A stretch of DNA of 64,000 nucleotides from an uncultured Alphaproteobacteria bacterium (GTDB lineage: Bacteria; Pseudomonadota; Alphaproteobacteria; Rs-D84; CACZYB01). The number at the start of each line of letters is the position of its first letter. Within the stretch, counting starts at the first letter, position 1. The stretch lies in assembly GCA_944392955.1 (NCBI GenBank), contig CALXYK010000004.1, positions 69,048 through 133,047 on the forward strand. Direction: 5' to 3'. A program made the translations under genes and the position numbers. Shown here piece after piece: positions 10,466-55,419 of this stretch. Below the pieces are notes generated by a model. It saw only the letters and a list, made by a program, of their open reading frames with translations, was not told the DNA's origin and searched no databases.

Positions 10466-10494
10466 TTGATTATCATCTTTTTTTATGATATACT
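10466..10494 (+). promoter_or_regulatory. Sigma70-like promoter (TTGATT-N17-TATACT) upstream of the pilin-like gene
   Basis: TTGATT at 10466-10471, a 17-nt spacer, and TATACT at 10489-10494. An SD (AAAGGAGA) lies 8 nt before the ATG at 10551. Confidence 0.35.
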
Positions 10495-10550
10495 AACAGT
10501 AGTTAAGAAAATTATACAAGAAAATAAAAAAAATACAAAGGAGAATAATT

Positions 10551-11078
10551 ATGATATTAAGAAAAAATGATTCTGGTCGTTCCATTGTGGAAATGCTTGG
10601 AGTTTTGGCGATTATGGGTGTTATAACCGTTATGGGTATACAAGGATATTCACAGGCTATTGGAAAAATTAACCGAAATAACCTTGTAGAAGATATTACA
10701 AGAATCGCCCAAGAGGTAAGGGGACTATATGCTGGTCGTTCATCTTATAATGAAAAAGATGGCGCCGATGGTTCCGCAGGATATAATATTGGAACAAACT
10801 TACTTGCAAAAATGAATTATAAACTATCATCACCTTATGGTGGAGATTATAAAATTGAATCATTTGGAACAACAGGTAAGAACCCTGGTTTCTCTGTCAG
10901 TGTTGAAAATGTACCAGTAGAAGATTGCCTATACTTTACAACTATGGCATGGGCTGATGTTATGGAAACAACAACAGGTGTTCCTGGATCCAGTGCTTTC
11001 GCAGGAGATTCTGCACCTGCTACCGGAACAACTTGTCCTGAATCTGATACTGCTGTTATAACTCTTTATTTCAGATAG
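10551..11078 (+). CDS. Type IV pilin-like / pseudopilin protein (class III prepilin signal)
   Basis: The N-terminus carries the prepilin peptidase motif G|RSIVEMLGVLAIMGVITVMGIQGY, which has the pattern of G|FTLIELMIVVAIIG. A C-terminal Cys pair (C...C) resembles the pilin D-region loop. Local GC is noticeably higher than the surrounding sequence. Confidence 0.6.
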   Translation: MILRKNDSGRSIVEMLGVLAIMGVITVMGIQGYSQAIGKINRNNLVEDITRIAQEVRGLYAGRSSYNEKDGADGSAGYNIGTNLLAKMNYKLSSPYGGDYKIESFGTTGKNPGFSVSVENVPVEDCLYFTTMAWADVMETTTGVPGSSAFAGDSAPATGTTCPESDTAVITLYFR

Positions 11079-11092
11079 TATAAAAGGTGTAA

Positions 11093-11131
11093 AAAAATAA
11101 AATCCACTCTGTTCTGAGTGGATTTTTTTAT
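11093..11131. terminator. Bidirectional rho-independent terminator between the pilin-like gene (+) and galE (-)
   Basis: The sequence is an A-run, then AATCCACTC-tgttct-GAGTGGATT, then a T-run. It works as a hairpin on both strands. Confidence 0.65.
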
Positions 11132-11146
11132 TCTTATAAGTTCTTA

Positions 11147-12179: not shown

Positions 12180-12794
12180 ATGAAATTTATATATACTATA
12201 ACTATGATAATTAAACGTTTTATTTCTGGCCCATTAGAGAATAATAATTACCTCGTTATTGATGAAAGTACAAACGAAGGTGTTTTAATAGATTGCAGTG
12301 AAATATCAAACAAAATAGATTCATACATAAGTAATAATAAAATCAATTTAAAATATATATTACTAACTCATGCACATTTTGATCATATATTAGGTGTGGA
12401 TTTTTTCAGACAAAAATACAAACCTTCTGTCTTCCTTCATAAAGATGATAAAGATTTATTAAATATGCTTAACACTTTCATTCCTAAGGCAAAAATTCCA
12501 ACTATTGATACATTTTTTGATGAAAATTTACACTTACAAATTGGAAATATAGATATAAAGATAATACACACGCCTGGACATAGTAATGGTAGTTGTTGTT
12601 TTTTAATAAAAGACAATCTTTTTTCAGGGGACACCCTATTTTACAAAGGATACGGAAGAACAGATCTTCCATTTGGAAATGAAAATAATTTATTCAAAAG
12701 TTTAACCAAACTTTTTTTACTTCCAAACGAAACAAAGGTATTTCCCGGTCATGGCTTTGAAACCAGTATAAAACAGGAAAAGTCTATTTACTAA
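12180..12794 (+). CDS. MBL-fold metallo-hydrolase (glyoxalase II / beta-lactamase-like)
   Basis: The HxHxDH motif (THAHFDHILG) plus downstream His and Asp ligands (HTPGHS, GDTLF) are present. Confidence 0.7.
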   Translation: MKFIYTITMIIKRFISGPLENNNYLVIDESTNEGVLIDCSEISNKIDSYISNNKINLKYILLTHAHFDHILGVDFFRQKYKPSVFLHKDDKDLLNMLNTFIPKAKIPTIDTFFDENLHLQIGNIDIKIIHTPGHSNGSCCFLIKDNLFSGDTLFYKGYGRTDLPFGNENNLFKSLTKLFLLPNETKVFPGHGFETSIKQEKSIY

Positions 12795-15700
12795 AATAAA
12801 TAATTAATCCCTAACATAAATTGATTATTTTTATATTCTTCTTTGAAATCTGAAAAATATTTGAAATAAACATTAAAAGATGAATAAAAATCTAAATTAA
12901 GGTTTAATCCAACTGAATATTTATTTTTATAAATAGGCAAAGATTCAGAAATAAAGTCCAGATTCGTATTTTCAAAAGAGGCATTTAGTTTTACATTGTT
13001 ATCCGAAATCAACCTAGCATAAGAAATAAATAATTCTGGCCTCAAAGCAAAAGTCTCAAAATATTTTACAAAACTTACATTAAACGACACTGGAAGCTGA
13101 GCAATAAAAAAATCATCACTATCTATACATCTATTTAATCCCCCTGCTTGTGTCTCGCAAAAATCATCTGCTCTTACATATGAAATATCCGTTCCAATAC
13201 TAGGATACAAATTAAACTCATTCCAACTAAATAAATATCCCAAAGAAAAATAAGTATTTACTAAATTATTTGTAAAATTGGATTTTGCCACTAAATTAGA
13301 AGGCAATCTTGAAAAATCATACTCTGCACTACTAATAAAACTTGCAAATCCGAAACCATAATTTACAAATATTTTATCAAATTTTTTTGCTCCATACAAG
13401 GTCATATTATAAACATCTGTATCTACATCTAATATATTATCATTTGTTAAAAACGAAGAATTTCCTATAACAAAAGAAACTCCTAAAATATTATCATCAA
13501 ACATTTTATCAATACCAAAACTTACACCATTAAAATCATTTTTAAACCCATCAAAATCTCGAATATCATTTTGTGTAACATTAGAAAAAATAGGATAAAT
13601 CCAAAATCCGTTTTTATTTTCTCTTACATTTTCTAAAAAATTTGTCCTTGTTTTAGCAGGATTCAGTAAAAAATAATTCAATTCAGGAACAAATGATGAG
13701 AAAGTAGCATATTTTTCAACAGATAAATCATCTAAAACATATTTAAGTTGCCCAACAGAATCTACACCTGTATAGATAAAATTTATTGCATCATTTAATT
13801 CCATTTCTAAATTAAAATCATCATATAAATCATCTATTAAATTTGCAACTTGATACTCATTATAATTTAAACCTGCCACATCATTTATTTTCAGCAACGA
13901 AGGATTAACTATTATATACAAAACATGTTTTCCTGCATATTCTCCTTCTGTTTCCAATACCCACTGAGCAGTGTAATTTGTAAATAAACTATTTGTCAAA
14001 TCTAAGTGCTGAGATATACTAAGCGGATTATTGGTATCTTCTGAATCCGCAACTAAAATTGGGAATTTATTGCTTACTCCATCAATAATACGAGCATCAG
14101 AAACAGCCGCTATATAAGAATTTTCATTAAAACTAACTTTGCCACTAACAATAATTTTAGATTCAGCAGATGGCGAAAATGTCGTAGTCTGAGGGGATAT
14201 AATCGCTAAATAGCTTCCACCATTTTGTAAACTAAGATTTCCATCAATATTCAATATACTATTTATATTAGATGTTATATATCCACCATTACTAACATTA
14301 ACAGAATTTCCATTTAAGTTTATATTTCCATTTCCAAATAATAGTCCATTAACCATAATATCATTATCTGTATCTACAATAGCATTATCATATAACCCTA
14401 AAAAAGATCCTTCTAAAACATTTAATGTATTGGCATACAAAGAAGTATTTTGAACTTCAAGATTTCCTTTTGAACTTTTATCAAATATAGTTTGAGCAAA
14501 ACTATTTCCAACATTCAAAGTTCCCTCCACACTAAACGGCTGACTAAGTATCAATTTTGCATCATCAACAATATTAAACGAACCATTACCTGATAAATAA
14601 ATGCTTTCTTGTGGTTGCATATTCGCTCTTAAAAAAATACTTCCATTGTTCACAATGTTCTGAGCTAAAAAATTCCTCCACATAGAATTATCCTCAGACA
14701 TTATGTCCACAACAGCACCATTTGAAATAGATATATCCCCAATATCATACGAAATCCCAGGTATAGTATTCAACCCATAATAGAAGAAATAAGTTTGATC
14801 AGTAATATTTGTTCCAATATTATAAACAGAATTTGGGGCAAAAGTTAACCTTCCCCCATCATTAATATATACTTGCCCTGCATTATTAAATACAGAACCA
14901 ATATATAACCAACCTCCATCATTTATATTCAAGTTTGCATTATAAAAAGAAAATACGACATCATCTGATGAAGATAAAATAGAAAACATAGCACCATCTT
15001 CTATGGTTAAATTTTGATTTCTAAAATCCATCAAAACACTACCTGACAAAGAATTTACGACAAATTGTTTAAACGAAGCACTATTGCCAACTTCATAAGA
15101 ACTATTTCCAATCATATTTAAATCAGAAACGCCATAAGGATTTAAAAATAAAATTCTACTTAATTGACTACTACCATCATTTTCAATAATAATATTTGAT
15201 AATAAATTTTGCATAAAATTACTTGAAGATAAATTAAGTATATCTGAATATTGATTCAAAAAGATTTTACCAGTTTCAGAAGAAACATAAGAAGAAGCAT
15301 CTTCAAAAATTAAATAAGATCTATCATAAGGATAACTACTACCGCCAGTCAAAGATATACTACCATAATTTTCTAACAATGCTGTATCAAAATTTTCTAT
15401 CGCAGATGGATATGTATCATTGTAAACATCAGAAGCAGAAGATACAACATTTATATTTCCATATACATTATTTCTTAATAAAGAATAGGAATATAAATGA
15501 GAGTCTATCAAATTTAAATAAGAATTCCCGATGCCTCCATTTTCGTTTCCTATTATAAAACTTGTATCAGAGCCTAAAAAAATTTGCCCTATATTCCTAC
15601 TGGATAATTTATTACCATTCATATTCAAAACTGCCTGATTTCCAATTGACGAATATAAAAACACTTTTCCAAAATTAGATAAAGAAATTAATCCCCCCGG

Positions 15701-15931
15701 AACAACATTTAAATAAGTATTCAAACTACTATCTATCTTATCTTGAAATAGCAAAGTCCCATCATTTGTAATAATAAGTCCATTACTAGAAGGCATCTCT
15801 CCAACGCCACTTCCATCATTACTAATATAAGTAAGTGAACTATTAATAACAGAAGGCAATTGTGTATCTGCACGACAAATTTCTGAAAATGCTACCAATG
15901 CCAACAATAAAATGTACCTTAAATATTTCAT
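12791..15931 (-). CDS. Autotransporter (type Va) outer-membrane protein with a large Asn/Gly/Ser-rich beta-helical passenger
   Basis: A 1046-aa protein. The signal peptide is MKYLRYILLLALVAFSEICRA. The passenger region is repetitive (NxGxI/L-type beta-helix). The C-terminal ~280 aa has alternating hydrophobic beta-strands and ends in ...GINYLF, a terminal aromatic typical of beta-barrels. Confidence 0.7.
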   Translation of the reverse strand: MKYLRYILLLALVAFSEICRADTQLPSVINSSLTYISNDGSGVGEMPSSNGLIITNDGTLLFQDKIDSSLNTYLNVVPGGLISLSNFGKVFLYSSIGNQAVLNMNGNKLSSRNIGQIFLGSDTSFIIGNENGGIGNSYLNLIDSHLYSYSLLRNNVYGNINVVSSASDVYNDTYPSAIENFDTALLENYGSISLTGGSSYPYDRSYLIFEDASSYVSSETGKIFLNQYSDILNLSSSNFMQNLLSNIIIENDGSSQLSRILFLNPYGVSDLNMIGNSSYEVGNSASFKQFVVNSLSGSVLMDFRNQNLTIEDGAMFSILSSSDDVVFSFYNANLNINDGGWLYIGSVFNNAGQVYINDGGRLTFAPNSVYNIGTNITDQTYFFYYGLNTIPGISYDIGDISISNGAVVDIMSEDNSMWRNFLAQNIVNNGSIFLRANMQPQESIYLSGNGSFNIVDDAKLILSQPFSVEGTLNVGNSFAQTIFDKSSKGNLEVQNTSLYANTLNVLEGSFLGLYDNAIVDTDNDIMVNGLLFGNGNINLNGNSVNVSNGGYITSNINSILNIDGNLSLQNGGSYLAIISPQTTTFSPSAESKIIVSGKVSFNENSYIAAVSDARIIDGVSNKFPILVADSEDTNNPLSISQHLDLTNSLFTNYTAQWVLETEGEYAGKHVLYIIVNPSLLKINDVAGLNYNEYQVANLIDDLYDDFNLEMELNDAINFIYTGVDSVGQLKYVLDDLSVEKYATFSSFVPELNYFLLNPAKTRTNFLENVRENKNGFWIYPIFSNVTQNDIRDFDGFKNDFNGVSFGIDKMFDDNILGVSFVIGNSSFLTNDNILDVDTDVYNMTLYGAKKFDKIFVNYGFGFASFISSAEYDFSRLPSNLVAKSNFTNNLVNTYFSLGYLFSWNEFNLYPSIGTDISYVRADDFCETQAGGLNRCIDSDDFFIAQLPVSFNVSFVKYFETFALRPELFISYARLISDNNVKLNASFENTNLDFISESLPIYKNKYSVGLNLNLDFYSSFNVYFKYFSDFKEEYKNNQFMLGINYLF

Positions 15932-16153: not shown

Positions 16154-17572
16154 TTAAATATCTAATAACAACTTGTCGCTTATAATTTTATAAAAAGATA
16201 TTGACAACATAACTTTCTTGTGAATAAGACTACTGTAGGTTTCAAGACCCCCAGATTTGTTGCTGGAAGGTGTTTTCTTGGAACCTATTTCTTTTTGATT
16301 ATAAGACATTGGAATTAAATGTCTAGTAGCAACCTTATCAAGGAAGAAGTGAGCCATTTCGTGAGGTAGTGTTCCAAAGTTAAAGTTAGAACCTAGTACT
16401 ATTGCTTTTAATTCAGAATCAAAGAAGCCGTTTGCATTTTGATTTAGAATAGTGTCTTCTAAATTATTGTTGACATTAGTGTCTTGTGCTTTTGATAATT
16501 CTTTTATCCTATTTTTAATAGAATCACCAATTTTTAAATTAATTGTATTGACTTCTGTTTCTTTTGATTGTATATTAAAGTTATCAGCCCCTGATAAAGT
16601 GTCTTTGACGCGTTCGGGGGTTGTTTTAACTCTTACATTATATAAATCCAAGATGTTTTTATCTTGTCCTTTTACTTGTTCTGTTGCAAGTTCTACATCA
16701 TAATTTTTACCATTTATAATTATTGGACTTTTAAAATATATATATTTATCTATATTTGCTTTATGTTCTAAAGTTTCTTTTCTTGTATTATGTGATAAAT
16801 CTACATTTTCTTCATTTGTTTTAGTTGCATTATTTATTATTTTTTCAATACTATTAAGTGATGTTTGATGTCGTCTTTTTTGCCTATTATTTAATTTAAC
16901 ATTAGAGCGAATAACGTGTGCTTTATTTCCATCTGTAATTTGTATTTGTAAAGGTGGAGTAGATGTATCAAGAGGTTTTCCTATAAGTTCGTTGATATAC
17001 TTTTCAATATCTTTTTCTGTAATATTACCATCTTTAATATTTTTAAATTCTTCAGAAAGGTCTACTACATTACTACTTACTTCTCCTACTTCTTCTTGAA
17101 ACAGTATCTTTTCTACTGTATTGTCTACATCATTAGTATTCATAAAGACTGACTTAAGGTCCTTATCTGTAATTACTCCATCTTTGATTAAGCCGTCTGT
17201 TATAGAACTTTCTTGTAGAGTTTGAAGTGCTATATCTCTTTTTGTAAAAGAAATATTTTTTTTATTTTCTTTACGGCTCAATTTATCAACATAATTTTCT
17301 AAAAATTCTTGAGTTTGAACATCAGAACCGAATGTAAAAGCATAAAGTAAAGCATTAACATTTGTATCATTACCTACAACCATTGAAAAGTTTTCTTTGT
17401 TTGTATTTGGTAGTTTTGTTAAAACTTGTTGGAGTTCTTTGTTTAAATCTGTCTTTTTACCAATACTTACAATATCAGGAATGTTTGCTATGATATTTCT
17501 TTTTGCTACCGGTATTCTGTCTTCAAGTACTAAACTTTGATATAATGTTTTATTTTTAAGGATATTCGCCAT
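16154..17572 (-). CDS. Signal-less 472-aa protein with a C-terminal HExxH zinc-metallopeptidase-like motif (HEMAHFF); candidate secreted effector or toxin
   Basis: There is no signal peptide. The middle is long and charged. The C-terminal block GTLPHEMAHFFLDKVATRHLIP carries HExxH. Two DNA segments of this gene (16308-16334 and 16425-16485) recur in the upstream intergenic region (see pseudogene). It lies between an autotransporter and tRNA-Leu. Confidence 0.55.
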   Translation of the reverse strand: MANILKNKTLYQSLVLEDRIPVAKRNIIANIPDIVSIGKKTDLNKELQQVLTKLPNTNKENFSMVVGNDTNVNALLYAFTFGSDVQTQEFLENYVDKLSRKENKKNISFTKRDIALQTLQESSITDGLIKDGVITDKDLKSVFMNTNDVDNTVEKILFQEEVGEVSSNVVDLSEEFKNIKDGNITEKDIEKYINELIGKPLDTSTPPLQIQITDGNKAHVIRSNVKLNNRQKRRHQTSLNSIEKIINNATKTNEENVDLSHNTRKETLEHKANIDKYIYFKSPIIINGKNYDVELATEQVKGQDKNILDLYNVRVKTTPERVKDTLSGADNFNIQSKETEVNTINLKIGDSIKNRIKELSKAQDTNVNNNLEDTILNQNANGFFDSELKAIVLGSNFNFGTLPHEMAHFFLDKVATRHLIPMSYNQKEIGSKKTPSSNKSGGLETYSSLIHKKVMLSISFYKIISDKLLLDI

Positions 17573-41935: not shown

Positions 41936-41964
41936 TTGATTAGAAGTAAAAAAAATGCTATAAT
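41936..41964 (+). promoter_or_regulatory. Sigma70-like promoter (TTGATT-N17-TATAAT) for paralog A
   Basis: TTGATT at 41936-41941, a 17-nt spacer, and TATAAT at 41959-41964. The ORF-track TTG start at 41936 is actually the -35 element. The real ATG is at 41987. Confidence 0.45.
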
Positions 41965-41986
41965 AAATAGTATAAAAAGGGATAAA

Positions 41987-43447
41987 ATGAGGAAAACAAA
42001 AGGATTCATAACATGTTTACTTTTTGTATCAATATATCTTATTGATACTCCTTTTGTTAAGGCACAACGCAATTCTCGTCGTCAAACCAAAACAACAACC
42101 GCTTCAAACTATGCTTCATCATCTGGATTACGAACTAATACAACATTAAGATGTGATAAACCTGGTGATCCTGGATGTATCGGAAGTCAGGGAAGTGCTT
42201 TTCTATCCTGTGGTAAAAATGCTCAAAAAAATAGTTCTCAAACCGCATGTGAATGTATAGATCCACTAAATTATGTAATAAATCCTGCAAATCCAAATGA
42301 ATGTATTGCTAAAACAGATTCTTTTGCAATCGCAGGTAAAAAGGCATGTGGTAATGCCTTAATAAATGCAATAGAAATTGAATGTGAAAATTCTTTCTAT
42401 AACAACGGAATGAATGAGGATAACACAATAAAATGTTATGATGCAAACGACTTATTCTTAAAATTTGACACCTCATCAATAGTTGTTTTTATAGAAGGCA
42501 TTCAATACAAATATGACGATGCATGCTATGCATATACCGAGGAATTAACAAAAAGCATTGCCGAAGATTATAATTTAACAGGTGCAAATTCACCAAATTG
42601 TAAATTAAAACGAACCATTGCCGAGGCATCAAACGAATGTTTTCAGGCAGTATTATCAACAGGAAAGGCAATGGGAGCAACCAATGCAATAGAAACCAAA
42701 CTTGAAAGTCTTTGTGGTATACAGGGGTTAAGGACAAAATGGACTAAATTATTCGGGGAAGAGGAGTTAAAGGGAATAATATTCCCAACAAATATTCCTC
42801 AACTATATATCAATGCTGGTAAGTTAAACCCTGCTGATGGTTTAGAATTAGTTGGAAATGTTCTTGATGGGAAATTCACCGACAAAAGTAATACTTGGGA
42901 AAGGGATATAACTATGATATTAAATTCCCACCTAAACGAAGTTGCCAGTGCCTGTGGACAGGAATATGCCACACAAATGCACAATACCGACATACAGATA
43001 TCAGATGAAAAATCATCTCTTCAAAGAGCTATTGACGAACAAGGTAGCATAAAGGGTGCACAAACATGGATAATGCAACAAGCATCTACTATAATAGGTG
43101 AAAACAAGGCAAATAAACTTGTCCGCGAAGGAACAATTGGCGGCATTAAGGATGAAGATATAGGAAACAACTCTTCAACAACAATATTAGAGTTAAGCCA
43201 AATCACCGAAGAAGAATTAGCACAACAAAACAACTTAACTTCTGGAATATATCTATTAACTTCTGGGAATAAGTATAGAATTGTTGAAATAAGGAAAACT
43301 GGAACAGGTACAACTGCAACAATTGAATATAAAACCATTCCATATTCAAACGATTTACAACTTTCCACTGATGCTTTAAAAGCAATAATTGGAAAAGAGG
43401 AAGATACAACATTAAACCAAAATGATTATATATCATTAGATAATTAA
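41987..43447 (+). CDS. Secreted protein, paralog family member A (Arg-rich mature N-terminus, conserved Cys blocks)
   Basis: ATG at 41987 (MRKTKGF...). The signal peptide is ...IDTPFVKA|QRNSRRQTKTTTAS. The shared block ITMILNSHLNEVASACGQEYATQMHNTDIQISDEKSSLQRAIDEQGSIKG aligns with members B and C. Confidence 0.65.
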   Translation: MRKTKGFITCLLFVSIYLIDTPFVKAQRNSRRQTKTTTASNYASSSGLRTNTTLRCDKPGDPGCIGSQGSAFLSCGKNAQKNSSQTACECIDPLNYVINPANPNECIAKTDSFAIAGKKACGNALINAIEIECENSFYNNGMNEDNTIKCYDANDLFLKFDTSSIVVFIEGIQYKYDDACYAYTEELTKSIAEDYNLTGANSPNCKLKRTIAEASNECFQAVLSTGKAMGATNAIETKLESLCGIQGLRTKWTKLFGEEELKGIIFPTNIPQLYINAGKLNPADGLELVGNVLDGKFTDKSNTWERDITMILNSHLNEVASACGQEYATQMHNTDIQISDEKSSLQRAIDEQGSIKGAQTWIMQQASTIIGENKANKLVREGTIGGIKDEDIGNNSSTTILELSQITEEELAQQNNLTSGIYLLTSGNKYRIVEIRKTGTGTTATIEYKTIPYSNDLQLSTDALKAIIGKEEDTTLNQNDYISLDN

Positions 43448-43457
43448 GGAGAAAAAT

Positions 43458-44819
43458 ATGACTAAAAAATTAATTGCATTGATAGGACTTTCACTATTAT
43501 TTTCACCTCAATCCAATGCGGCAAGGAATACACGTAGAGCAAGCAGTAATACACGATCTGCCTCTCAAAATGTTAGGGTAACAGGACGCACCGTAAACAT
43601 AAATGCGAATGTTTCTGATACTACATATACAGAAACAGATTACTCTAAAATAGCACCCGCAACAGATCCTATTGCAAAAAGGAAATGTACCGAACTTGTA
43701 GTAGAAGCCCTAACCGAATATTGTGGCACTGATGAAGAAAACAAGGAATGTAATAATACGACAGAAGGTTCAAATGAATCTTGTGGCACTGTTAAAAAAT
43801 GTAAAAATGCAACAGAAGCCTATGCAAAAATAAAAATAGAAGATAATCCAAACGGACCTAACGAAATTTATTGTGCTAATTTCATAGAAGAGGCAGTAAA
43901 CAACCTATGGGATTCATTCGATACTTACAAGGCAACAAATGAAAAAAATTGTAATATTGCTTTGGCACGATCCCTTGCTGCCGAAGAATGTTATAGATAT
44001 GCATTAACACAAAAAAATGTTAGATTCTCCATAAACTCCTTTGAAACATTCAAAGAAGAAGAACTCTCAATGTGTAATAAAGCAGCCGTTGTAAAAATAT
44101 ATAAAACAATATCAAACGGAGATACTATAACAGAAGATGAAGCTGGTGACAATATTGCAAGTTATTTTTCCAAGGTTGGTGCAAGTGGCTGGACAAATCT
44201 AGCAGTATACACAAGATTGCTTGACGCAAACGTTGATCTTACAACAACTGAATTCCCACGTGATTTAATCTTATTGGTAAATAGTTTGAAATCCCAAGGA
44301 AATATGATGTGTGGTCAGGATCATTATACCGAACTTGTTGATGCAAATATCCAATTGATTGATAAGACTGGATCTTGGGAAAAACAAATCAAAGAAAAAG
44401 GAGCAATTGCTGGTACCGCAGATTATATTGCAGATACAACAGAATCTATCGTAAATCTAAGGACTTTATTGTCTAATACAATAAAATCAGACAAAGCTGA
44501 AAAAACAGCTCAAAATGCAGAAAAAGCAACTGAAAAACTAGCAGAAATAGATAATGACATTACAATCATAACTGCAAATATTTCAAGATTATCAGATGAG
44601 AACAAAAACAAAAAAGATACAGATAATAACGAAGATTTATCTTTATCAGAACACTTAAATAAAATTTCTGATTTACGAAATAATCTTCCTGAACAAACTG
44701 CAAATGACTACTCTGATAAAATAAAAGAGCTAGAAAAGGAAATCAAAAACACAAAAACTAAATTTAAAAAAGTAAAAGGTAATGAAATAGACTATAATAT
44801 CAACTACCGAAATTCATAA
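43458..44819 (+). CDS. Secreted protein, paralog family member B
   Basis: An SD (AAGGAG) precedes the ATG at 43458. The signal peptide is ...LLFSPQSNA|ARNTRRASSNTRSAS. It shares blocks with C: KRKCTELVVEALTEYCG, NNLWDSFDTYKATNEKNCNIALARSLAAEECYRYALTQKN, and FPRDLILLVNSLKSQGNMMCGQDHY...WEKQIKEKGAIAG. Confidence 0.7.
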   Translation: MTKKLIALIGLSLLFSPQSNAARNTRRASSNTRSASQNVRVTGRTVNINANVSDTTYTETDYSKIAPATDPIAKRKCTELVVEALTEYCGTDEENKECNNTTEGSNESCGTVKKCKNATEAYAKIKIEDNPNGPNEIYCANFIEEAVNNLWDSFDTYKATNEKNCNIALARSLAAEECYRYALTQKNVRFSINSFETFKEEELSMCNKAAVVKIYKTISNGDTITEDEAGDNIASYFSKVGASGWTNLAVYTRLLDANVDLTTTEFPRDLILLVNSLKSQGNMMCGQDHYTELVDANIQLIDKTGSWEKQIKEKGAIAGTADYIADTTESIVNLRTLLSNTIKSDKAEKTAQNAEKATEKLAEIDNDITIITANISRLSDENKNKKDTDNNEDLSLSEHLNKISDLRNNLPEQTANDYSDKIKELEKEIKNTKTKFKKVKGNEIDYNINYRNS

Positions 44820-44870: not shown

Positions 44871-44914
44871 AATAATCCTTGCCCTACTTTCAAAACAATG
44901 ATATAATGAATGGT

Positions 44915-47362
44915 ATGAAAAAATTTTTATTTGCATTATTTTTATTTTTCACAATTCCTGTTTTTGCAAACGATGGAACCGATAATTCTGTAAAAAAACA
45001 ATTAAACATAAAATTTGAACAAAACACTCCAAATAATTTAAAAAAGGCAGCATCAAAATTTATTGAAATAAAGGATCTATATTGTCAAAATAACAACAAT
45101 GCCTTATGTTCAAAATCATATCAATATTCAAATATTTTATCTCAAATAAACACCGCAACCTTTGAACCTACTACTGAAAATTTTCAACTTATTGCAAATT
45201 TTTATAAGGAATTACAGGAATTTTCCAACGAACAAAACAGAATTGAAACCGCCAATAAAAATGACCTTATCGCTCAAATACAAACTAAAAAAACTTTGTT
45301 AAAAACTAACCTAAATAATTTAATAGACTTATTAAATAAGGAAAATTCATTACTTCCAAACCCATTACCACAGGATAAACAATTATCAAAGAATCTAACC
45401 AAACTTTCAAAGGATGATTTAAATAAAAACGACACAAATTTAAAAACACGACAAACCCAACTTACAAATTTAAAATTGCATAATGCACAAAAGGAAATAA
45501 CTTCTGATATACAAATACCTGAAAATATACAAAATTTATCAGAACAAGAATTGAAAAATATTTTACAAACAATAAGTGAGCAGGAAACTGCTATCAACAA
45601 CCAAATTCAACTTACAAATAACAATATAACTATTTTAGAAACAGAAAATGCATCTAAGGAAGCAGAATACAAAAATCTTTTACAAGAATTAACAAAGGCA
45701 AAACAAAAACAGGCTGAACTTTTAAATAAAAAAGATCTTGTCCCAGATAATAAAGGTAATGATAAAAATACCAACGACAAATTATTCAACGAACTTAAAA
45801 ATACAATTACTGATGAAAATAAAAATAATATTAAACAATACAATATCGTTGCAGAATCTTATTCTACAAACGAAGACATTGAAAAGATAAAACAAGAAAT
45901 AGAAAATGTAAATAATAACACAAAACTTCTTGAAAACTTCTTAAATAATCAAAAAAATGAATTGGAAAAATGTGAAAAGGAATTATCATCTATAATAACA
46001 AATATTGATGAATTAAAACCTATGACACTTGAACAATGTCAAAAGGAACTTAAAAAAGCACAAGATGAAAAAATAGAAAAAGAATGTATCGCAGAAAGAT
46101 TAAAGGAATGTTCCGATGAAATAGGAAACCTAAAATCTTTATTCAAATCATCTGTTCAAAATGGAACACCTGACGGATACAAATACCTATACGAAAGTAG
46201 AACTTCATATTGTGCCGATGAAAACAATCCTGTATATGGTGTTGAATGGGTTGGCAATGTTGCTAAAAAAGTAGATACTTTGAAATGGATGTTAAAACCA
46301 ACAAAAAATGTGGAAAATAATCAATGTAGATACAATAATTCCCTACACACAATTACAATATTATCTTTATCCGATGCAAAGGAAAAACTTAAAACTTGTG
46401 TCCGTGATTTAAGACTATTGCAAGAAATAGAAAAGGAATGTAGCGGACTAACTCCTTTACCTGACATATCTGAGATAAAGGGAAGTTCCAATGTTGAAAA
46501 TTATATAAACATAAAGGAAAGCGATTTTAATCAATGTCAAAATAGCATAACTTTATACAAAGGTGTACCTAATACAGCTACTATCGGAAACAACAAGGCA
46601 ATAAAATATTGTAGGAATGCTATTGCATCCGAAGCTTGCAACACCTATCTTGCTGGTGCAATATTGAAATACAAACAAAAAGGATATAATTATTCTTTAA
46701 CCATTCCTGATAACAAATTATCTACCTGTAAATCATACATAGAAGAAAGTTTATGTAATAAATACAGGACAGAAAATAGTATAACTGAAAAACCAACTAC
46801 ACAAAGTGGACAGGAAAGTTATGCCTATACAACTCAGTGTCTAGAATTAGATAATGCTTATGCAAAGATAAAGGAAAATCTAAATTCTATTTCCAGCAGT
46901 GAAATAACATCTTTGGGACAAATAATAAAAAATCAATATGGAAATTTATCTTGTGGATATGGTTGTAGTGCAAGTAGTTTGTTAAAGCGTTCTGATGCAA
47001 ATGATGGTAAGTATCAATCATCTTATGACAGCCAAATAAAATCTTTTGCTGAAAAATATAATGCATTATGTAAATACAATGATAAAACAAGTGCAATACA
47101 AAAAGTTGGAAAAGAAAAAAATAATAATCAATCAAAATACAAAGATGGTTCAATAGATAGCGAAATAGAAAATATTGAAGACATAATGTTTTTAAGGTTA
47201 AAGGAGTTAAATGTCCTAAACAAAAGTCAATTCAATGGAACATCATTAGATTTTCAAAAGAAAAGTTTTGCAAAATTCTTGTTCCATATATACATATACC
47301 ACCATAACTTAAACGCATCTGGATCAATATGTGATCAGGCAAAGGTAATAAGCGAACACTAA
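44915..47362 (+). CDS. Large secreted coiled-coil protein with a Cys-rich C-terminal third (about 815 aa)
   Basis: ATG at 44915 (MKKFLFALFLFFTIPVFA|NDG signal peptide). Residues ~100-430 are Asn/Lys/Glu/Leu-rich coiled-coil. The C-terminal ~350 aa carry at least 20 Cys in spaced pairs. A short motif NAYAKIKEN echoes member B (EAYAKIKIEDN). Confidence 0.6.
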   Translation: MKKFLFALFLFFTIPVFANDGTDNSVKKQLNIKFEQNTPNNLKKAASKFIEIKDLYCQNNNNALCSKSYQYSNILSQINTATFEPTTENFQLIANFYKELQEFSNEQNRIETANKNDLIAQIQTKKTLLKTNLNNLIDLLNKENSLLPNPLPQDKQLSKNLTKLSKDDLNKNDTNLKTRQTQLTNLKLHNAQKEITSDIQIPENIQNLSEQELKNILQTISEQETAINNQIQLTNNNITILETENASKEAEYKNLLQELTKAKQKQAELLNKKDLVPDNKGNDKNTNDKLFNELKNTITDENKNNIKQYNIVAESYSTNEDIEKIKQEIENVNNNTKLLENFLNNQKNELEKCEKELSSIITNIDELKPMTLEQCQKELKKAQDEKIEKECIAERLKECSDEIGNLKSLFKSSVQNGTPDGYKYLYESRTSYCADENNPVYGVEWVGNVAKKVDTLKWMLKPTKNVENNQCRYNNSLHTITILSLSDAKEKLKTCVRDLRLLQEIEKECSGLTPLPDISEIKGSSNVENYINIKESDFNQCQNSITLYKGVPNTATIGNNKAIKYCRNAIASEACNTYLAGAILKYKQKGYNYSLTIPDNKLSTCKSYIEESLCNKYRTENSITEKPTTQSGQESYAYTTQCLELDNAYAKIKENLNSISSSEITSLGQIIKNQYGNLSCGYGCSASSLLKRSDANDGKYQSSYDSQIKSFAEKYNALCKYNDKTSAIQKVGKEKNNNQSKYKDGSIDSEIENIEDIMFLRLKELNVLNKSQFNGTSLDFQKKSFAKFLFHIYIYHHNLNASGSICDQAKVISEH

Positions 47363-48009: not shown

Positions 48010-49668
48010 ATGAAAAAAAGATTTTATATATTATTTTTTATATCTGTTGGTTTTTTAATAAATTCCAATGTTTTTTCAGCACCAAATCGCTCACAACGAT
48101 CCCGTTCTGCATCAACTTCTATCAATACTATTCGCGGGAATTACAATACTTCAACAAATACTTATACCGGAACTAAAACAACTACAACCACACAAACCAG
48201 TAATGATACTTTACAATGTGGTATTGCACCTGATGCGACAAACAATCTTGCAAAACGACAATGTGCAATTGCTATGGCCGAAGCGTTAAAGTTATATTGT
48301 GCTTCATATCCATGCAACAGCAAAATAAAGGTTGAACTATCTTTTAATTTTGCACTACCAAGTTTAGAAAAAATATCCTCTACAATAAATGGTGAAAGTT
48401 GTTCGGGTGCAAATCTTGATAAATTTTGTGCACCATTCCAAAGTTCTTTGATAAATAATCTTTGGGATTTATATTCTGAACAATCTATAAGAGATAGAAA
48501 AAACTGCGATATGGCAAAGGCAAAATATTCCGCAGCCCAAGATTGCTTTGCATATATACAATCTGCTAAAAACAATTCTGTCGGCAACAGATTTAGTAAA
48601 AGTAAAATCACCGAACTTGATAAAGAAATAGATAAACGATGCGGTAAAGAAGCAATCATAAATAAATATAAATCTATCAGTATTGATGATTGGACCGAAG
48701 AAGATGAAAATACATTCTTTAAAAACATAAGTTTCACTTCAAATGCAACAGGCGAACTTATAGACTCTTATCAAGGAGAAAAGCAATTATCTTCCACTGT
48801 TGCAAGTTTATTTGCAAATACAGGGGACAATACATGGAATTATGCCGGACAAATTGGAAGACTTTTTGATCTTAATTTCAGCACTAAATCTTCTACATAT
48901 CCAAGGGAGTTAGTCGTAATAGCAAACACATTTGTAACAGAAGGAGAAGCTGCTTGTGGTAAAGATTTTAAAGTTGATATGGAAACAACATCATTTGAAA
49001 TAAGTGATTCTCGCTCTGCACTTGAAAAACAAATTGCAAAGAAAGGTATATTAAAAGGATTGTTTGATTTTGGTATAGATAATACCGTTGGTGCAATAAG
49101 CGAGGATAAGGCTCAAAGTTGGAAAGAAAAAGGTATCCTCGGCAAAGTTTCAGAAAGCAAAGATAAAAAAACGGCAGAACAACTTGATAAAATTTTATCA
49201 AAATTACAAATTCTTTCAACAAATTGTAATACATCTGCTGGTAATTTTGAACAAATAACAACAGAAATAAAATTTATATTAAACGAATTAAAAACAATAA
49301 TAGGAAACACAGATAGATTTGAAGCAAACAAAGAAAAAATAAGAGAAGTTTTAGATACTATATTAACATTCAAAAGGGATCCTAACGAAGAAATAACAAT
49401 AACTTCTAATACCCAGGCTGAATTTAACTTAACAATATTAAAGTTAGAAACTTTAAGATTTACATGTCCAAATGGCGACTTTAATACAACTGAACAAGAA
49501 ACTATCCAGTATGAATTTAGTTATGATACTTCTGCTCCTAATGTAATAAATACCATACTAAATTCTTTAAAGGAAAGTGTAATATTTACAGGAACATTGA
49601 TATATTCTGATTATGAAAATGGTGAAGAAATCAAACAAATATTAGCACCACTAAATGATATAAAATAA
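48010..49668 (+). CDS. Secreted protein, paralog family member C
   Basis: The signal peptide is ...INSNVFSA|PNRSQRSRSASTSINTIRGN. The blocks KRQCAIAMAEALKLYCAS, NNLWDLYSEQSIRDRKNCDMAKAKYSAAQDCFAYIQSAKN and YPRELVVIANTFVTEGEAACGKDF...LEKQIAKKGILKG align with A and B. Confidence 0.7.
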   Translation: MKKRFYILFFISVGFLINSNVFSAPNRSQRSRSASTSINTIRGNYNTSTNTYTGTKTTTTTQTSNDTLQCGIAPDATNNLAKRQCAIAMAEALKLYCASYPCNSKIKVELSFNFALPSLEKISSTINGESCSGANLDKFCAPFQSSLINNLWDLYSEQSIRDRKNCDMAKAKYSAAQDCFAYIQSAKNNSVGNRFSKSKITELDKEIDKRCGKEAIINKYKSISIDDWTEEDENTFFKNISFTSNATGELIDSYQGEKQLSSTVASLFANTGDNTWNYAGQIGRLFDLNFSTKSSTYPRELVVIANTFVTEGEAACGKDFKVDMETTSFEISDSRSALEKQIAKKGILKGLFDFGIDNTVGAISEDKAQSWKEKGILGKVSESKDKKTAEQLDKILSKLQILSTNCNTSAGNFEQITTEIKFILNELKTIIGNTDRFEANKEKIREVLDTILTFKRDPNEEITITSNTQAEFNLTILKLETLRFTCPNGDFNTTEQETIQYEFSYDTSAPNVINTILNSLKESVIFTGTLIYSDYENGEEIKQILAPLNDIK

Positions 49669-54131: not shown

Positions 54132-54521
54132 ATGAAAAAAACACTACTTTTACTTTTAATAATAACATATGCAACCCCATCATATGCACTAACACTACAA
54201 ACATTAAAAGATACTCTTGAAAAATATTGTGTTCCTAATACCGCCACTTGCTTAGATCCGAAATTACAGGCGGATTATACAAACGGCAAATGTGTATGTA
54301 AAGAAGATGGTCGCTATTGGAACAAAGAAGACAGAGCCTGCGAAGAATGCACCGGACCAACAATAGTAAATGAAGAAGGTGACGGCTGTAAACCAATCAA
54401 ATGCCCTGATGGTTATGCAATAATTTTAATAACAGATGGAAATTGCCCTTCTGGATATTATCTAGCACAAATACAAAACGGAAATTGTCCTGCGGGCTAT
54501 GAACTTTGGAGTTATAAATAA
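54132..54521 (+). CDS. Small secreted Cys-rich protein (129 aa) with CPxGY-type repeats
   Basis: An SD (AACAGGAGAG) precedes the ATG. The signal peptide is LLLLLIITYATPSYA|LTLQ. There are 12 Cys, including KCPDGYAIILITDGNCPSGYYLAQIQNGNCPAGYELW. Confidence 0.6.
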   Translation: MKKTLLLLLIITYATPSYALTLQTLKDTLEKYCVPNTATCLDPKLQADYTNGKCVCKEDGRYWNKEDRACEECTGPTIVNEEGDGCKPIKCPDGYAIILITDGNCPSGYYLAQIQNGNCPAGYELWSYK

Positions 54522-54540
54522 AAAAGAAAGAGAGGAAAAC

Positions 54541-55419
54541 ATGAAACTAAAACATTCACTTTTGATATGTATAAGCGGTGGAATTGCCATCACATCACAA
54601 ACACTTAATGCACAAACATTTTACCAATGTATCCAATGCAAAAGCGGAACCTATGCCACAAGCACAGGTTGCGAACCTTGTCCAAAGGGATATTATTGCA
54701 CAGACGGAATAAAAACTGCCTGCCCTGAATTTCAGACCACTTCTAGCACAGGAAATTCAAGTAGTAGTGCTTGCCATATTCAAGAAGTAAAAATTTATGG
54801 TAAAAGTGTAACATCTGGGGTAATATCAACTCAATATGAGACTATTCCTGTAAACCATAGTGCATTCACTTGTGACAAAAACAGTTTTCCTAAATTATTT
54901 GGAACTGGTGGACTTACTCCAAGTATAAGTGGATGTGTGGTAAGTATTTTAGGACATTATACATATGATATAGGTAAATATGGCAATGGACAATATTACA
55001 ACATAGTTTGTGATGGAATACCATGTAATGAATATCATGTAGAAAAAGTAAATACCTGCTCAGCTGGATACTATATACCTTCTGGCTCAACATCGTGTCA
55101 ACCATGTGGTTATGGATACTATTGCTCTGGCGGAAAAAGAACCGGTTGTCCTGTTAATAAAACAACAACTACTACAACAGCATCAAGTTCAAGTGCTTGC
55201 ATAGATCAATATTGGGGTTTCAGATACAAAACTAGTTCTGGAACTTCAACATTAAAATATAAAATTGAACAAGTAGGTTATTGCCCTATACAAAGTGGTT
55301 GTACCTTCATTGATGCAACAGGGGCAATAGGAGGAGGAGCTGGAGGAACTTACATGGGATTATGTTCAACTAGTGGACCTTGTTCTCACCCTACTATAAT
55401 CAAATACACACCACAGTAA
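54541..55419 (+). CDS. Secreted Cys-rich repeat protein (about 292 aa) with eukaryote-like C-x-P-C-x-x-G-Y-Y-C repeats
   Basis: The ATG at 54541 follows the SD AAAGAGAGGAAAAC. The ORF-track start at 54499 overlaps the upstream gene. The signal peptide is ...ITSQTLNA|QTF. Repeats include CIQCKSGTYATSTGCEPCPKGYYCTDGIKTACPEF and CSAGYYIPSGSTSCQPCGYGYYCSGGKRTGCPVNKTT. Poly-Thr/Ser linkers (TTTTTTASSSSAC) are present. Confidence 0.6.
   Translation: MKLKHSLLICISGGIAITSQTLNAQTFYQCIQCKSGTYATSTGCEPCPKGYYCTDGIKTACPEFQTTSSTGNSSSSACHIQEVKIYGKSVTSGVISTQYETIPVNHSAFTCDKNSFPKLFGTGGLTPSISGCVVSILGHYTYDIGKYGNGQYYNIVCDGIPCNEYHVEKVNTCSAGYYIPSGSTSCQPCGYGYYCSGGKRTGCPVNKTTTTTTASSSSACIDQYWGFRYKTSSGTSTLKYKIEQVGYCPIQSGCTFIDATGAIGGGAGGTYMGLCSTSGPCSHPTIIKYTPQ

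What the first reader, a model, noticed from the sequence alone, without database searches (positions are those of the whole stretch)
10466..11131. Isolated, GC-enriched type IV pilin-like gene
This is a 175-aa protein with a textbook class III signal (G|RSIVEMLGVLAIMGVITVMGIQGY, Glu at +5) and a C-terminal Cys pair. It has its own promoter and a bidirectional terminator, and sits between uvrC and galE with no pilus assembly genes (pilB/C/D/Q) in the window. Its GC content is visibly above the surrounding DNA (for example ggcgccgatggttccgcagg), which suggests horizontal acquisition. It could be a pseudopilin for a competence or T2SS-like apparatus, or a stand-alone adhesin pilin.
Basis: seen in the sequence. 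Interest (0 to 1): 0.5.

Follow-up and report, generated by a model that had tools for sequence, protein, structure and literature searches.

The report
Core type IVb pilin, not imported
The gene is a real type IVb pilus subunit that uncultured, small-genome gut Alphaproteobacteria have inherited vertically at the same spot next to uvrC; its raised GC reflects the protein's amino acids, not foreign origin, and relatives carry the matching pilus machinery.

Summary
The ORF at 10551-11078 (+) is real. It encodes 175 aa with a class III signal (MILRKNDSG|RSIVEM..., Glu at +5) and a Cys126/Cys162 pair. It has a promoter-like site, a GGAG ribosome site and a strong two-way terminator. No pilus assembly gene lies in the 64 kb window.

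The horizontal-transfer reading fails. Overall GC is 38% against 30%, but third-position GC is 19.9% against a mean of 20.1%, and synonymous codon use matches the other genes. The pgsA-uvrC-pilin order holds in nearly all of 80 related gut MAG loci.

It belongs to a large alphaproteobacterial pilin family. In 12 metagenome loci, family pilins sit directly behind a full type IVb operon. In Candidatus Enterousia, TcpQ and the secretin lie about 9 kb from the orthologous pilin.

Most likely it is the major subunit of a type IVb pilus whose genes are scattered. I could not show the ATPase, platform protein or prepilin peptidase in this genome. No A24 peptidase appeared in 2.4 Mb of related loci.

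The parts
10466..10494 (+). Promoter-like site: TTGATT, 17-nt spacer, TG-extended TATACT, in the uvrC-pilin divergent intergenic region
   Evidence: Consensus scan, (9 of 12 matches). Two such sites were found against 3.9 expected by chance, so this is suggestive only. Its position about 55 nt upstream of the ATG is plausible.
10540..10543 (+). Shine-Dalgarno-like GGAG, 7 nt upstream of the ATG
   Evidence: Read directly from the sequence.
10551..11078 (+). Prepilin gene, 175 aa including the leader; a type IVb-class major pilin
10551..10577 (+). Short basic leader peptide MILRKNDSG (9 aa), ending in the -1 Gly
   Evidence: Sequence. Gly at -1 is present in every related locus examined, encoded by all four Gly codons.
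10578..10652 (+). N-terminal half of helix alpha-1 of the mature pilin: RSIVEMLGVLAIMGVITVMGIQGYS, with Arg at +1 and Glu at +5
   Evidence: Column entropy is 0.1-0.2 bits here, against 2-3 bits in the globular part. Residues are invariant while synonymous codons are saturated. The model has a helix over residues 8-59.
10926..11036 (+). Region bounded by Cys126 and Cys162 (D-region-like loop); the most variable part of the protein
   Evidence: Both Cys are at least 90% conserved across 40 homologues. They are the only two Cys in the protein. Entropy is 2.2-2.9 bits across residues 131-160.
11099..11133 (.). Two-way intrinsic terminator shared with the convergent galE: an 11-bp stem, a 6-nt loop, and A/T runs on both sides
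   Evidence: Terminator scan on both strands. Fold dG -16.7 kcal/mol, z -5.3, with 0 of 200 shuffles folding as well.

Best explanation
The gene encodes the major subunit (prepilin) of a type IVb-class pilus in an uncultured, low-GC gut alphaproteobacterium related to the reduced-genome Rs-D84 / Candidatus Enterousia group.

**Proposed mechanism (inferred from what is established for type IV pilins).** The prepilin inserts into the inner membrane through its hydrophobic N-terminal helix. A prepilin peptidase removes the 9-residue leader after Gly9, exposing Arg10. A GspE-family ATPase with a PilC/T2SSF-type platform then polymerises the subunit. The invariant helix, including Glu+5, packs in the fibre core. 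The variable, disulfide-bonded globular domain faces outward. The fibre leaves through a PilN/TcpC-type lipoprotein secretin helped by TcpQ.

**Shown here.**
- The pilin's identity and fold class.
- Its vertical inheritance at a fixed core locus.
- The protein-level constraint on the processing and assembly residues.
- The physical linkage of family pilins to complete type IVb operons in relatives.
- TcpQ plus secretin next to the orthologous locus in Enterousia.

**Inferred only.** That this particular genome still holds the ATPase, platform and peptidase elsewhere, and what the pilus does. Attachment to a partner cell or host surface is the most plausible role in a lineage thought to depend on partners.
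For: **1. Family and fold.**
- Pfam PilS is above its cut-off.
- An HMM of 40 homologues hits BfpA, TcpA and PilS in the PDB.
- tblastn finds IncI-type plasmid 'type 4 pilus major pilin' genes at 25-28% identity over 93-98% of the protein.

**2. Constraint typical of an assembled pilin.**
- Gly-1, Arg+1, Ser+2 and Glu+5 are present in every related locus, while every synonymous codon is used.
- Residues 1-34 are about 90% identical, whereas the globular part is only 13-60% identical.
- The Cys pair is conserved.

**3. Native gene.**
- GC3 and four-fold codon use equal the genome's.
- uvrC is adjacent in 67 of 70 loci and pgsA in 61 of 70.

**4. Machinery in relatives.**
- Twelve metagenome loci carry TcpQ, a PilN secretin (TIGR02520, 287.8 bits against a cut-off of 287.65), PAP_PilO, a PilP-like protein, a T2SSE ATPase and T2SSF. 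These are followed by one to three pilins with the same GRSM(I/V)EMLGVLAI N-terminus and a PilT-like ATPase.
- The window pilin aligns to such an operon pilin at E 5e-19.
- In Enterousia, TcpQ (PF10671) and the secretin end 9.4 kb upstream of the uvrC-adjacent pilin.
- The secretin is 86-97% identical across the 120 top-scoring protein clusters listed.
Against: - No assembly gene was seen in this genome: none in the 64 kb window, nor in the extra ~10 kb upstream and 2.4 kb downstream.
- I found no secretin or TcpQ in the held loci of the window's own closer clade, L006-L020. These extend at most 10 kb to each side of the pilin.
- No A24 prepilin peptidase was found anywhere in 2.37 Mb of related loci, not even in the full operons, where type IVb systems usually keep it.
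- A published survey of Rs-D84 genomes reports type IV pili only for a different lineage and does not mention them for Rs-D84 (PMC12306168). This is silence in a short paper, not a stated absence.
- The Pfam N_methyl motif scores below its threshold (13.8 against 21.2 bits).
- The leader is much shorter than is classical for type IVb pilins.
Confidence: 0.75

Rival explanations
1. Relic or repurposed pilin. In this reduced-genome lineage the inner-membrane assembly genes have been lost. The protein persists as a membrane-anchored periplasmic protein with some other envelope role.
For: - No machinery in about 76 kb around the gene.
- No A24 peptidase in any sampled locus.
- In Enterousia the gene abuts or overlaps a pseudouridine synthase gene, followed by AsmA and a diadenylate cyclase gene. 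That layout looks like a housekeeping or envelope operon.
- The Rs-D84 survey does not report pili.
Against: - Gly-1 and Glu+5 are needed only for cleavage and fibre assembly. Their strict invariance over deep divergence is hard to explain without processing.
- The globular domain varies strongly, as expected for an exposed surface.
- Enterousia keeps a highly conserved TcpQ plus type IVb secretin close by.
- Only about 7-10% of a genome of this size was visible.
Confidence: 0.1
2. Recently acquired foreign gene encoding a stand-alone adhesin pilin.
For: Overall GC is 38.1% against 30.4%, the highest of 48 ORFs. The gene has its own promoter-like site and terminator.
Against: - GC3 is 19.9% against a mean of 20.1%, and four-fold codon use is identical to the other genes.
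- The same locus is occupied in nearly all of 80 species-level relatives.
- No mobile-element genes flank it.
- No relatives were found in the viral contig collection.
Confidence: 0.02
3. Major pseudopilin of a type II secretion or competence system rather than a pilus subunit.
Against: - No GspG, T2SSG or ComG family hit in Pfam or NCBIfam.
- Much stronger matches go to type IVb pilins.
- It has a disulfide-bounded variable region, which (from general knowledge) GspG-type pseudopilins usually lack.
- The linked machinery in relatives is of the PilN/TcpQ/PilO type IVb kind, with a PilT-like second ATPase.
Confidence: 0.05
4. A type IVb pilin, but a secondary, variant or minor subunit rather than the main structural one.
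For: - Larger-genome relatives carry several scattered paralogues (at least 5 in one MAG), and operons hold up to three pilin genes.
- Tandem pairs occur at the uvrC locus in some termite-gut MAGs.
Against: - It is the one copy conserved at a fixed locus across the whole group.
- Its size and fold match major pilins (CofA, TcpA), not the 400-500 aa type IVb minor pilins.
- It is the only class III signal in the window.
Confidence: 0.08

Closest known systems
Type IVb major pilins of enteric pathogens: CofA (CFA/III), TcpA (V. cholerae), BfpA (EPEC)
   Same: - Long N-terminal helix with Glu+5 and a non-Phe residue at +1.
- An alpha/beta globular domain with a C-terminal disulfide-bounded variable region.
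- Relatives use TcpQ plus a lipoprotein secretin, as the Tcp system does.
   Different: - The leader is 9 aa (5-12 across the family), against the roughly 15-30 aa that is classical for type IVb (my own knowledge).
- Arg at +1 is invariant. I know of no characterised pilin with Arg at +1.
- The mature protein is 166 aa, shorter than those pilins.
- The gene is an orphan at a housekeeping locus, not inside the assembly operon.
- No peptidase gene accompanies the operons of relatives.
PilS, thin-pilus pilin of IncI plasmids (R64) and S. Typhi; Pfam PF08805
   Same: - This is the only Pfam family above its threshold.
- 25-28% identity over almost the full length to plasmid pil-operon pilins.
- The machinery of relatives matches the R64-type set PilL/TcpQ-PilN-PilO-PilP-PilQ-PilR-PilS.
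   Different: - It is chromosomal, core and vertically inherited rather than plasmid-borne.
- No PilV shufflon adhesin, PilT transglycosylase or PilU peptidase lies next to it.
- Relatives have an added PilT-like short ATPase.
Neisseria pilE and other type IVa major pilin genes
   Same: A monocistronic, strongly signalled major pilin gene located away from a scattered set of assembly genes. It has a short leader, a conserved N-terminus and a hypervariable exposed domain.

Membership tests
Type IV pilin superfamily (class III signal peptide proteins) | Short basic leader ending in Gly(-1), Glu at +5, followed by about 20 hydrophobic residues | tested here: met
   MILRKNDSG|RSIVEMLGVLAIMGVITVMGI. 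Gly-1 and Glu+5 are present in all related loci.
Type IV pilin superfamily (class III signal peptide proteins) | Match to the curated N-terminal methylation motif model (Pfam PF07963) | tested here: not met
   13.8 bits against a cut-off of 21.2, and no NCBIfam hit. The motif is recognisable by eye but atypical: Arg at +1, and RSIVEM instead of FTLIEL.
Type IV pilin superfamily (class III signal peptide proteins) | Extended N-terminal helix packed against a beta-sheet ('lollipop' fold) | tested here: met
Type IV pilin superfamily (class III signal peptide proteins) | Cleavage and N-methylation by an A24 prepilin peptidase | not testable with these tools
   No peptidase gene is in the window or in 2.37 Mb of related loci.
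Type IVb major pilins (PilS, TcpA, CofA, BfpA) | Sequence homology of the globular domain to type IVb pilin families | tested here: met
   PF08805, E 3.6e-9, above its cut-off. HMM hits to BfpA, TcpA and PilS chains.
Type IVb major pilins (PilS, TcpA, CofA, BfpA) | Type IVb fold topology | tested here: met
Type IVb major pilins (PilS, TcpA, CofA, BfpA) | Conserved C-terminal disulfide bounding a variable region | tested here: met
   Cys126 and Cys162 are at least 90% conserved. That they form a bond is inferred, not shown.
Type IVb major pilins (PilS, TcpA, CofA, BfpA) | Long leader (about 15-30 aa) and a +1 residue other than Phe | tested here: inconclusive
   The +1 residue is not Phe (it is Arg), which fits. 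The leader is only 9 aa, and 5-12 aa across the family, which is type IVa-like.
Type IVb major pilins (PilS, TcpA, CofA, BfpA) | Encoded within, or functionally tied to, a compact type IVb assembly operon (secretin, PilO/P, ATPase, platform, peptidase) | tested here: inconclusive
   Not met in this window. Met for family members in 12 metagenome loci, except for the peptidase. Partly met in Enterousia, where TcpQ and the secretin lie 9 kb away.
T2SS major pseudopilin (GspG) | Match to GspG/T2SSG family models and the GspG fold | tested here: not met
Flp/Tad (type IVc) pilins | Very small (about 50-80 aa) pilin with the Flp motif | tested here: not met
   The protein is 175 aa with a full globular domain, and there is no Flp family hit.

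The most novel reading that the evidence does not exclude
This alphaproteobacterial pilin family may be processed or assembled in a non-canonical way. Two observations leave this open. Arg at +1 is invariant, which I know from no characterised pilin. And no A24 prepilin peptidase gene was found in or near any sampled type IVb operon or pilin locus. A different maturation enzyme might be involved. Alternatively, in the most reduced genomes, a cut-down machine (pilin plus TcpQ and secretin, with few other parts) might serve as the main contact organelle of these partner-dependent gut bacteria.
Probability: 0.1. Interest if true: 0.7.

Novelty: new member of a known kind. Interest (0 to 1): 0.33.

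Why it matters
The Rs-D84 / Enterousia group and its relatives are widespread, uncultured gut bacteria. Their genomes are about 0.7-1.6 Mb and they have almost no biosynthetic capacity, so they are thought to depend on a partner (PMC12306168).

A pilin kept at a fixed core locus, together with a highly conserved secretin, points to a type IVb pilus as a candidate attachment or uptake organelle for that lifestyle. This parallels what is proposed for other ultra-small bacteria.

Two further points follow:
- Type IVb pili are not confined to enteric pathogens and conjugative plasmids.
- Most of these genes are currently labelled 'hypothetical protein' and could be annotated.

For the scan itself, the main lesson is cautionary. 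A locally raised GC in an AT-rich genome can be purely an amino-acid effect.

Tried and rejected
**Lines that were checked and dropped**
- **Horizontal transfer:** rejected on GC3, codon use and synteny.
- **Phage origin:** one paralogue (P0051, L004) sits in a phage-like block. A scan of 2.9 million viral contigs found no relative, so I dropped this line.
- **Pilus parts among the window's nine ORFs without Pfam hits:** relaxed searches gave only noise. They are secreted, Cys-rich, coiled-coil paralogues.
- **RNA element in the region:** nothing reached an Rfam threshold.

**Searches for machinery that came up empty**
- Motif and tblastn searches near the pilin in 85 loci found nothing except the L032 secretin.
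- Contexts of the divergent paralogues P0047, P0053, P0059, P0033, P0336 and P0387 are all orphans among housekeeping genes.
- An A24 peptidase search using Arsenophonus PilU and a relaxed GxGDx[KR] motif with at least 4 membrane segments gave only two chance matches (my reading: PlsY-like).

- Nothing was found on pili in Rs-D84, Enterousia or RF32, and no paper contains the N-terminal motif.
- The 2023 Enterousia paper and the mSphere supplements were not held.
- The afdb50 fold library was unavailable.

Full report
**The observation.** The window is AT-rich (30.4% GC) and carries ordinary alphaproteobacterial housekeeping genes, including TatC, Hda, PgsA, UvrC, Ffh, RpoD, TrcR, RelA/SpoT, RuvA, ClpX, TolB and SecF.

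The ORF at 10551-11078 (+) encodes 175 aa starting MILRKNDSG|RSIVEMLGVLAIMGVITVMGIQGY. Gly is at -1 and Glu at +5 of the predicted cleavage site. The protein's only two cysteines are at positions 126 and 162.

Its expression signals are as follows:
- A TG-extended promoter-like site lies at 10466-10494. On its own this is no better than chance.
- GGAG sits 7 nt before the ATG.
- A hairpin at 11099-11126 reads as an intrinsic terminator on both strands. Its dG is -16.7 kcal/mol, z = -5.3.

The neighbours are uvrC (divergent) and a GalE-type epimerase (convergent).

No ORF of 120 aa or more in the window hits a pilus, T2SS or Tad assembly family. This is the only class III-type signal in all six frames. 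Contigs of the same species add about 10 kb upstream and 2.4 kb downstream, also without such genes.

**GC content and origin.** The ORF is the most GC-rich of 48 ORFs, at 38.1% (z = 2.2). The excess is confined to codon positions 1 and 2 (48% and 46%). GC3 is 19.9% against a mean of 20.1%.

Third-base use in four-fold codon families is A 0.42, C 0.10, G 0.02, T 0.46 in the pilin. In the other genes it is 0.39, 0.10, 0.07, 0.45.

The protein ranks second of 46 for Gly+Ala+Pro+Arg content and lowest for Lys+Asn+Ile+Phe+Tyr. The GC signal is an amino-acid effect, not evidence of foreign origin.

**Synteny.** A scan of one genome per species found 310 loci encoding relatives. The best 80 are all uncultured gut MAGs from ruminants, termites, humans and mice. 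They are labelled Alphaproteobacteria, Rickettsiales or Candidatus Enterousia, and a few are labelled Muribaculaceae or Bacteroidales, which I take to be mislabels.

In nearly all of them the pilin follows pgsA(-) and uvrC(-), even at 28-38% pilin identity. An independent clustering of neighbouring ORFs finds uvrC next to the pilin in 67 of 70 loci and pgsA in 61 of 70.

Closer relatives share the longer run orf4459-hda-sua5-GT1-pgsA-uvrC-pilin. This is a vertically inherited core gene.

It evolves faster than its neighbours. In the nearest species representatives, the pilin is 58-62% identical, against 74-79% for uvrC and pgsA.

**What the protein is.** The evidence points to a type IVb-class major pilin:
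- Pfam PilS (PF08805), a type IVb pilin family, is the only family above its threshold. The Bundlin and N_methyl models score below theirs. NCBIfam gives nothing.
- A profile of 40 homologues hits the type IVb pilins BfpA (7.5e-8), TcpA (2.5e-7) and PilS (6e-4) among solved structures.
- The AlphaFold2 model is confident (pLDDT 86.6, pTM 0.75) and shows a helix over residues 8-59 on a beta-sheet.
- Foldseek agrees, but weakly.
- Plasmid searches find IncI-type 'type 4 pilus major pilin' genes at 25-28% identity over nearly the whole protein.

It departs from the classical type IVb description in three ways: a 9-residue leader, Arg at +1, and a somewhat smaller mature protein.

**Selection pattern.** Across the family the first 34 residues are about 90% identical. 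The globular part falls to 13-60% identity.

Gly-1, Arg+1, Ser+2 and Glu+5 are present in every locus. They are encoded by all available synonymous codons, including both Arg and both Ser codon families. The collection scan used patterns downstream of these positions. Their invariance is therefore not forced by how the loci were collected.

The two cysteines are at least 90% conserved. The most variable regions are the loop after the helix and the stretch between the cysteines.

This is the signature of a subunit that is cleaved, packed through its N-terminal helix, and exposed through its globular domain.

I used the type IVb pil operon of an Arsenophonus plasmid as probes. Among the first 94 loci, the only hit besides the pilins was a PilN-type secretin in one Enterousia locus, L032 (E 1.8e-37).

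Following that lead gave these results:
- The secretin has 813 homologues at E below 1e-10. The top 120 are 86-97% identical and come from Alphaproteobacteria MAGs.
- It is preceded by a TcpQ-domain gene (PF10671, E 1e-17).
- Its best NCBIfam match is the PilN type IVb family.
- On long contigs the pair ends 9.4 kb upstream of the uvrC-adjacent pilin. Only gyrB, dnaJ, an RNase T gene, uvrD, pgsA, uvrC and one unannotated ORF lie between them.

A profile search of 1.84 billion representative proteins showed that the window's pilin belongs to a very large family. It has 6,727 clusters at E of 1e-3 or better.

Most members are 190-250 aa pilins with the N-terminus GRSM(I/V)EMLGVLAI(I/V)GVLSVGGIAGYSKAM. 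They come from gut Alphaproteobacteria, often with several scattered copies per genome.

A metagenome scan with these sequences returned 79 loci. Twelve of them hold a complete type IVb operon immediately upstream of family pilins. The gene order is:
- TcpQ;
- a PilN secretin, which passes the TIGR02520 cut-off;
- a PAP_PilO protein;
- a PilP-like coiled-coil protein;
- a 556-aa T2SSE ATPase;
- a 375-aa T2SSF platform protein;
- a pilin-like protein with no cleavage motif;
- one to three GRSMVEML pilins;
- a 320-aa PilT-like ATPase.

The window pilin aligns to one of these operon pilins at E 5e-19, sharing the N-terminus, the first cysteine and the Trp that follows it.

The family is thus genetically tied to a canonical type IVb machine. 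The more reduced lineages have the genes dispersed.

**What remains open.**
- I found no ATPase, platform or secretin in the window's own genome or in the held loci of its closer clade. Those loci reach at most 10 kb to each side of the pilin.
- No A24 prepilin peptidase was detected anywhere in 2.37 Mb of related sequence, including the complete operons. That is unusual for type IVb systems. The peptidase may simply lie elsewhere in these genomes.
- The one genomic survey of Rs-D84 mentions type IV pili only for another lineage (PMC12306168). The paper is short and its supplements were not held.
- I found no paper describing this pilin family or a type IVb system in these bacteria.

**Verdict.** The horizontal-transfer interpretation is refuted.

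The gene is best explained as the major subunit of a type IVb-class pilus in a reduced-genome gut alphaproteobacterium, with its assembly genes elsewhere in the genome (confidence about 0.75). The main rival is a relic or repurposed pilin in a genome that has lost the motor (about 0.1).

It is a new member of a known kind. It has some unusual traits: invariant Arg+1, a short leader, a fixed core locus, and no operon-linked peptidase. These traits, and the possible role in a partner-dependent lifestyle, give it modest interest.

Noticed in passing
window 41936-43447, 43458-44819, 44879-47362, 48010-49668 (+): Four large ORFs without Pfam hits flank ruvA. All four have signal peptides and coiled-coil segments, and three of them also share an Arg/Ser/Thr-rich stretch and Cys-rich regions. 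They look like a lineage-specific family of secreted or surface proteins.
   Followed up: partly
window 12791-15931 (-) and 16154-17572 (-): Just beyond galE and an MBL-fold hydrolase gene lie a 1046-aa autotransporter (PF03797) and a 472-aa protein with a weak LPD3 domain. Together with the pilin this makes a small patch of surface-protein genes.
   Followed up: no
L096 9074-11629 (also L097, L098, L032 86-2536): In Enterousia, a TcpQ plus PilN-type secretin pair sits alone among housekeeping genes, 9.4 kb from the pilin. The secretin is 86-97% identical across the 120 top-scoring clusters listed, whereas the pilin is only 65-75% identical within the same group.
   Followed up: yes
L158 342-12321; L145 1324-11866; L159 1380-11760: Complete type IVb operons in gut alphaproteobacterial contigs have no prepilin peptidase gene. 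They end with a short PilT-like ATPase. In all three loci they are followed by the same VWA, PP2C phosphatase and protein-kinase trio.
   Followed up: partly
L004 8123-16716: A pilin paralogue (P0051, 157 aa) lies between a T7-type scaffold gene and a major capsid gene in a phage-like block. The block also has a T7-like tail gene and a GH108 lysin gene, near TraG and TraT genes. No relatives were found in the viral contig collection.
   Followed up: partly
Protein P0200 (272 aa): One predicted protein contains two copies of the class III N-terminus: a truncated 'ESGRSMIEML' followed about 60 residues later by an intact one. This suggests recombination or duplication at the conserved 5' segment of pilin genes. 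Two paralogues in L099 are 87-93% identical in DNA over the first 120 nt and lower, and uneven, beyond (33-87% per 30-nt block).
   Followed up: partly
L036 1505-2942, L066 9962-11447, L076 9986-11432: In Enterousia-type loci the pilin stop overlaps the start of a pseudouridine synthase gene by about 11 nt. AsmA and diadenylate cyclase genes follow, so there the pilin may be co-transcribed with envelope and housekeeping genes. This differs from the terminator-bounded gene in the window.
   Followed up: no
L040 (OZ246409.1), L053, L054, L063, L066, L076, L014: Several public MAGs labelled Muribaculaceae or Bacteroidales carry the alphaproteobacterial pgsA/uvrC-pilin locus (in some only uvrC or pgsA is visible beside the pilin), so the labels are evidently wrong. 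One of them is a closed chromosome of only 716,531 bp.
   Followed up: no
window 54132-55419 (+): Two overlapping ORFs have very high second-position GC (42-52%) and weak hits to Cys-rich domains (Ephrin_rec_like, NCD3G). They may be another Cys-rich secreted protein.
   Followed up: no
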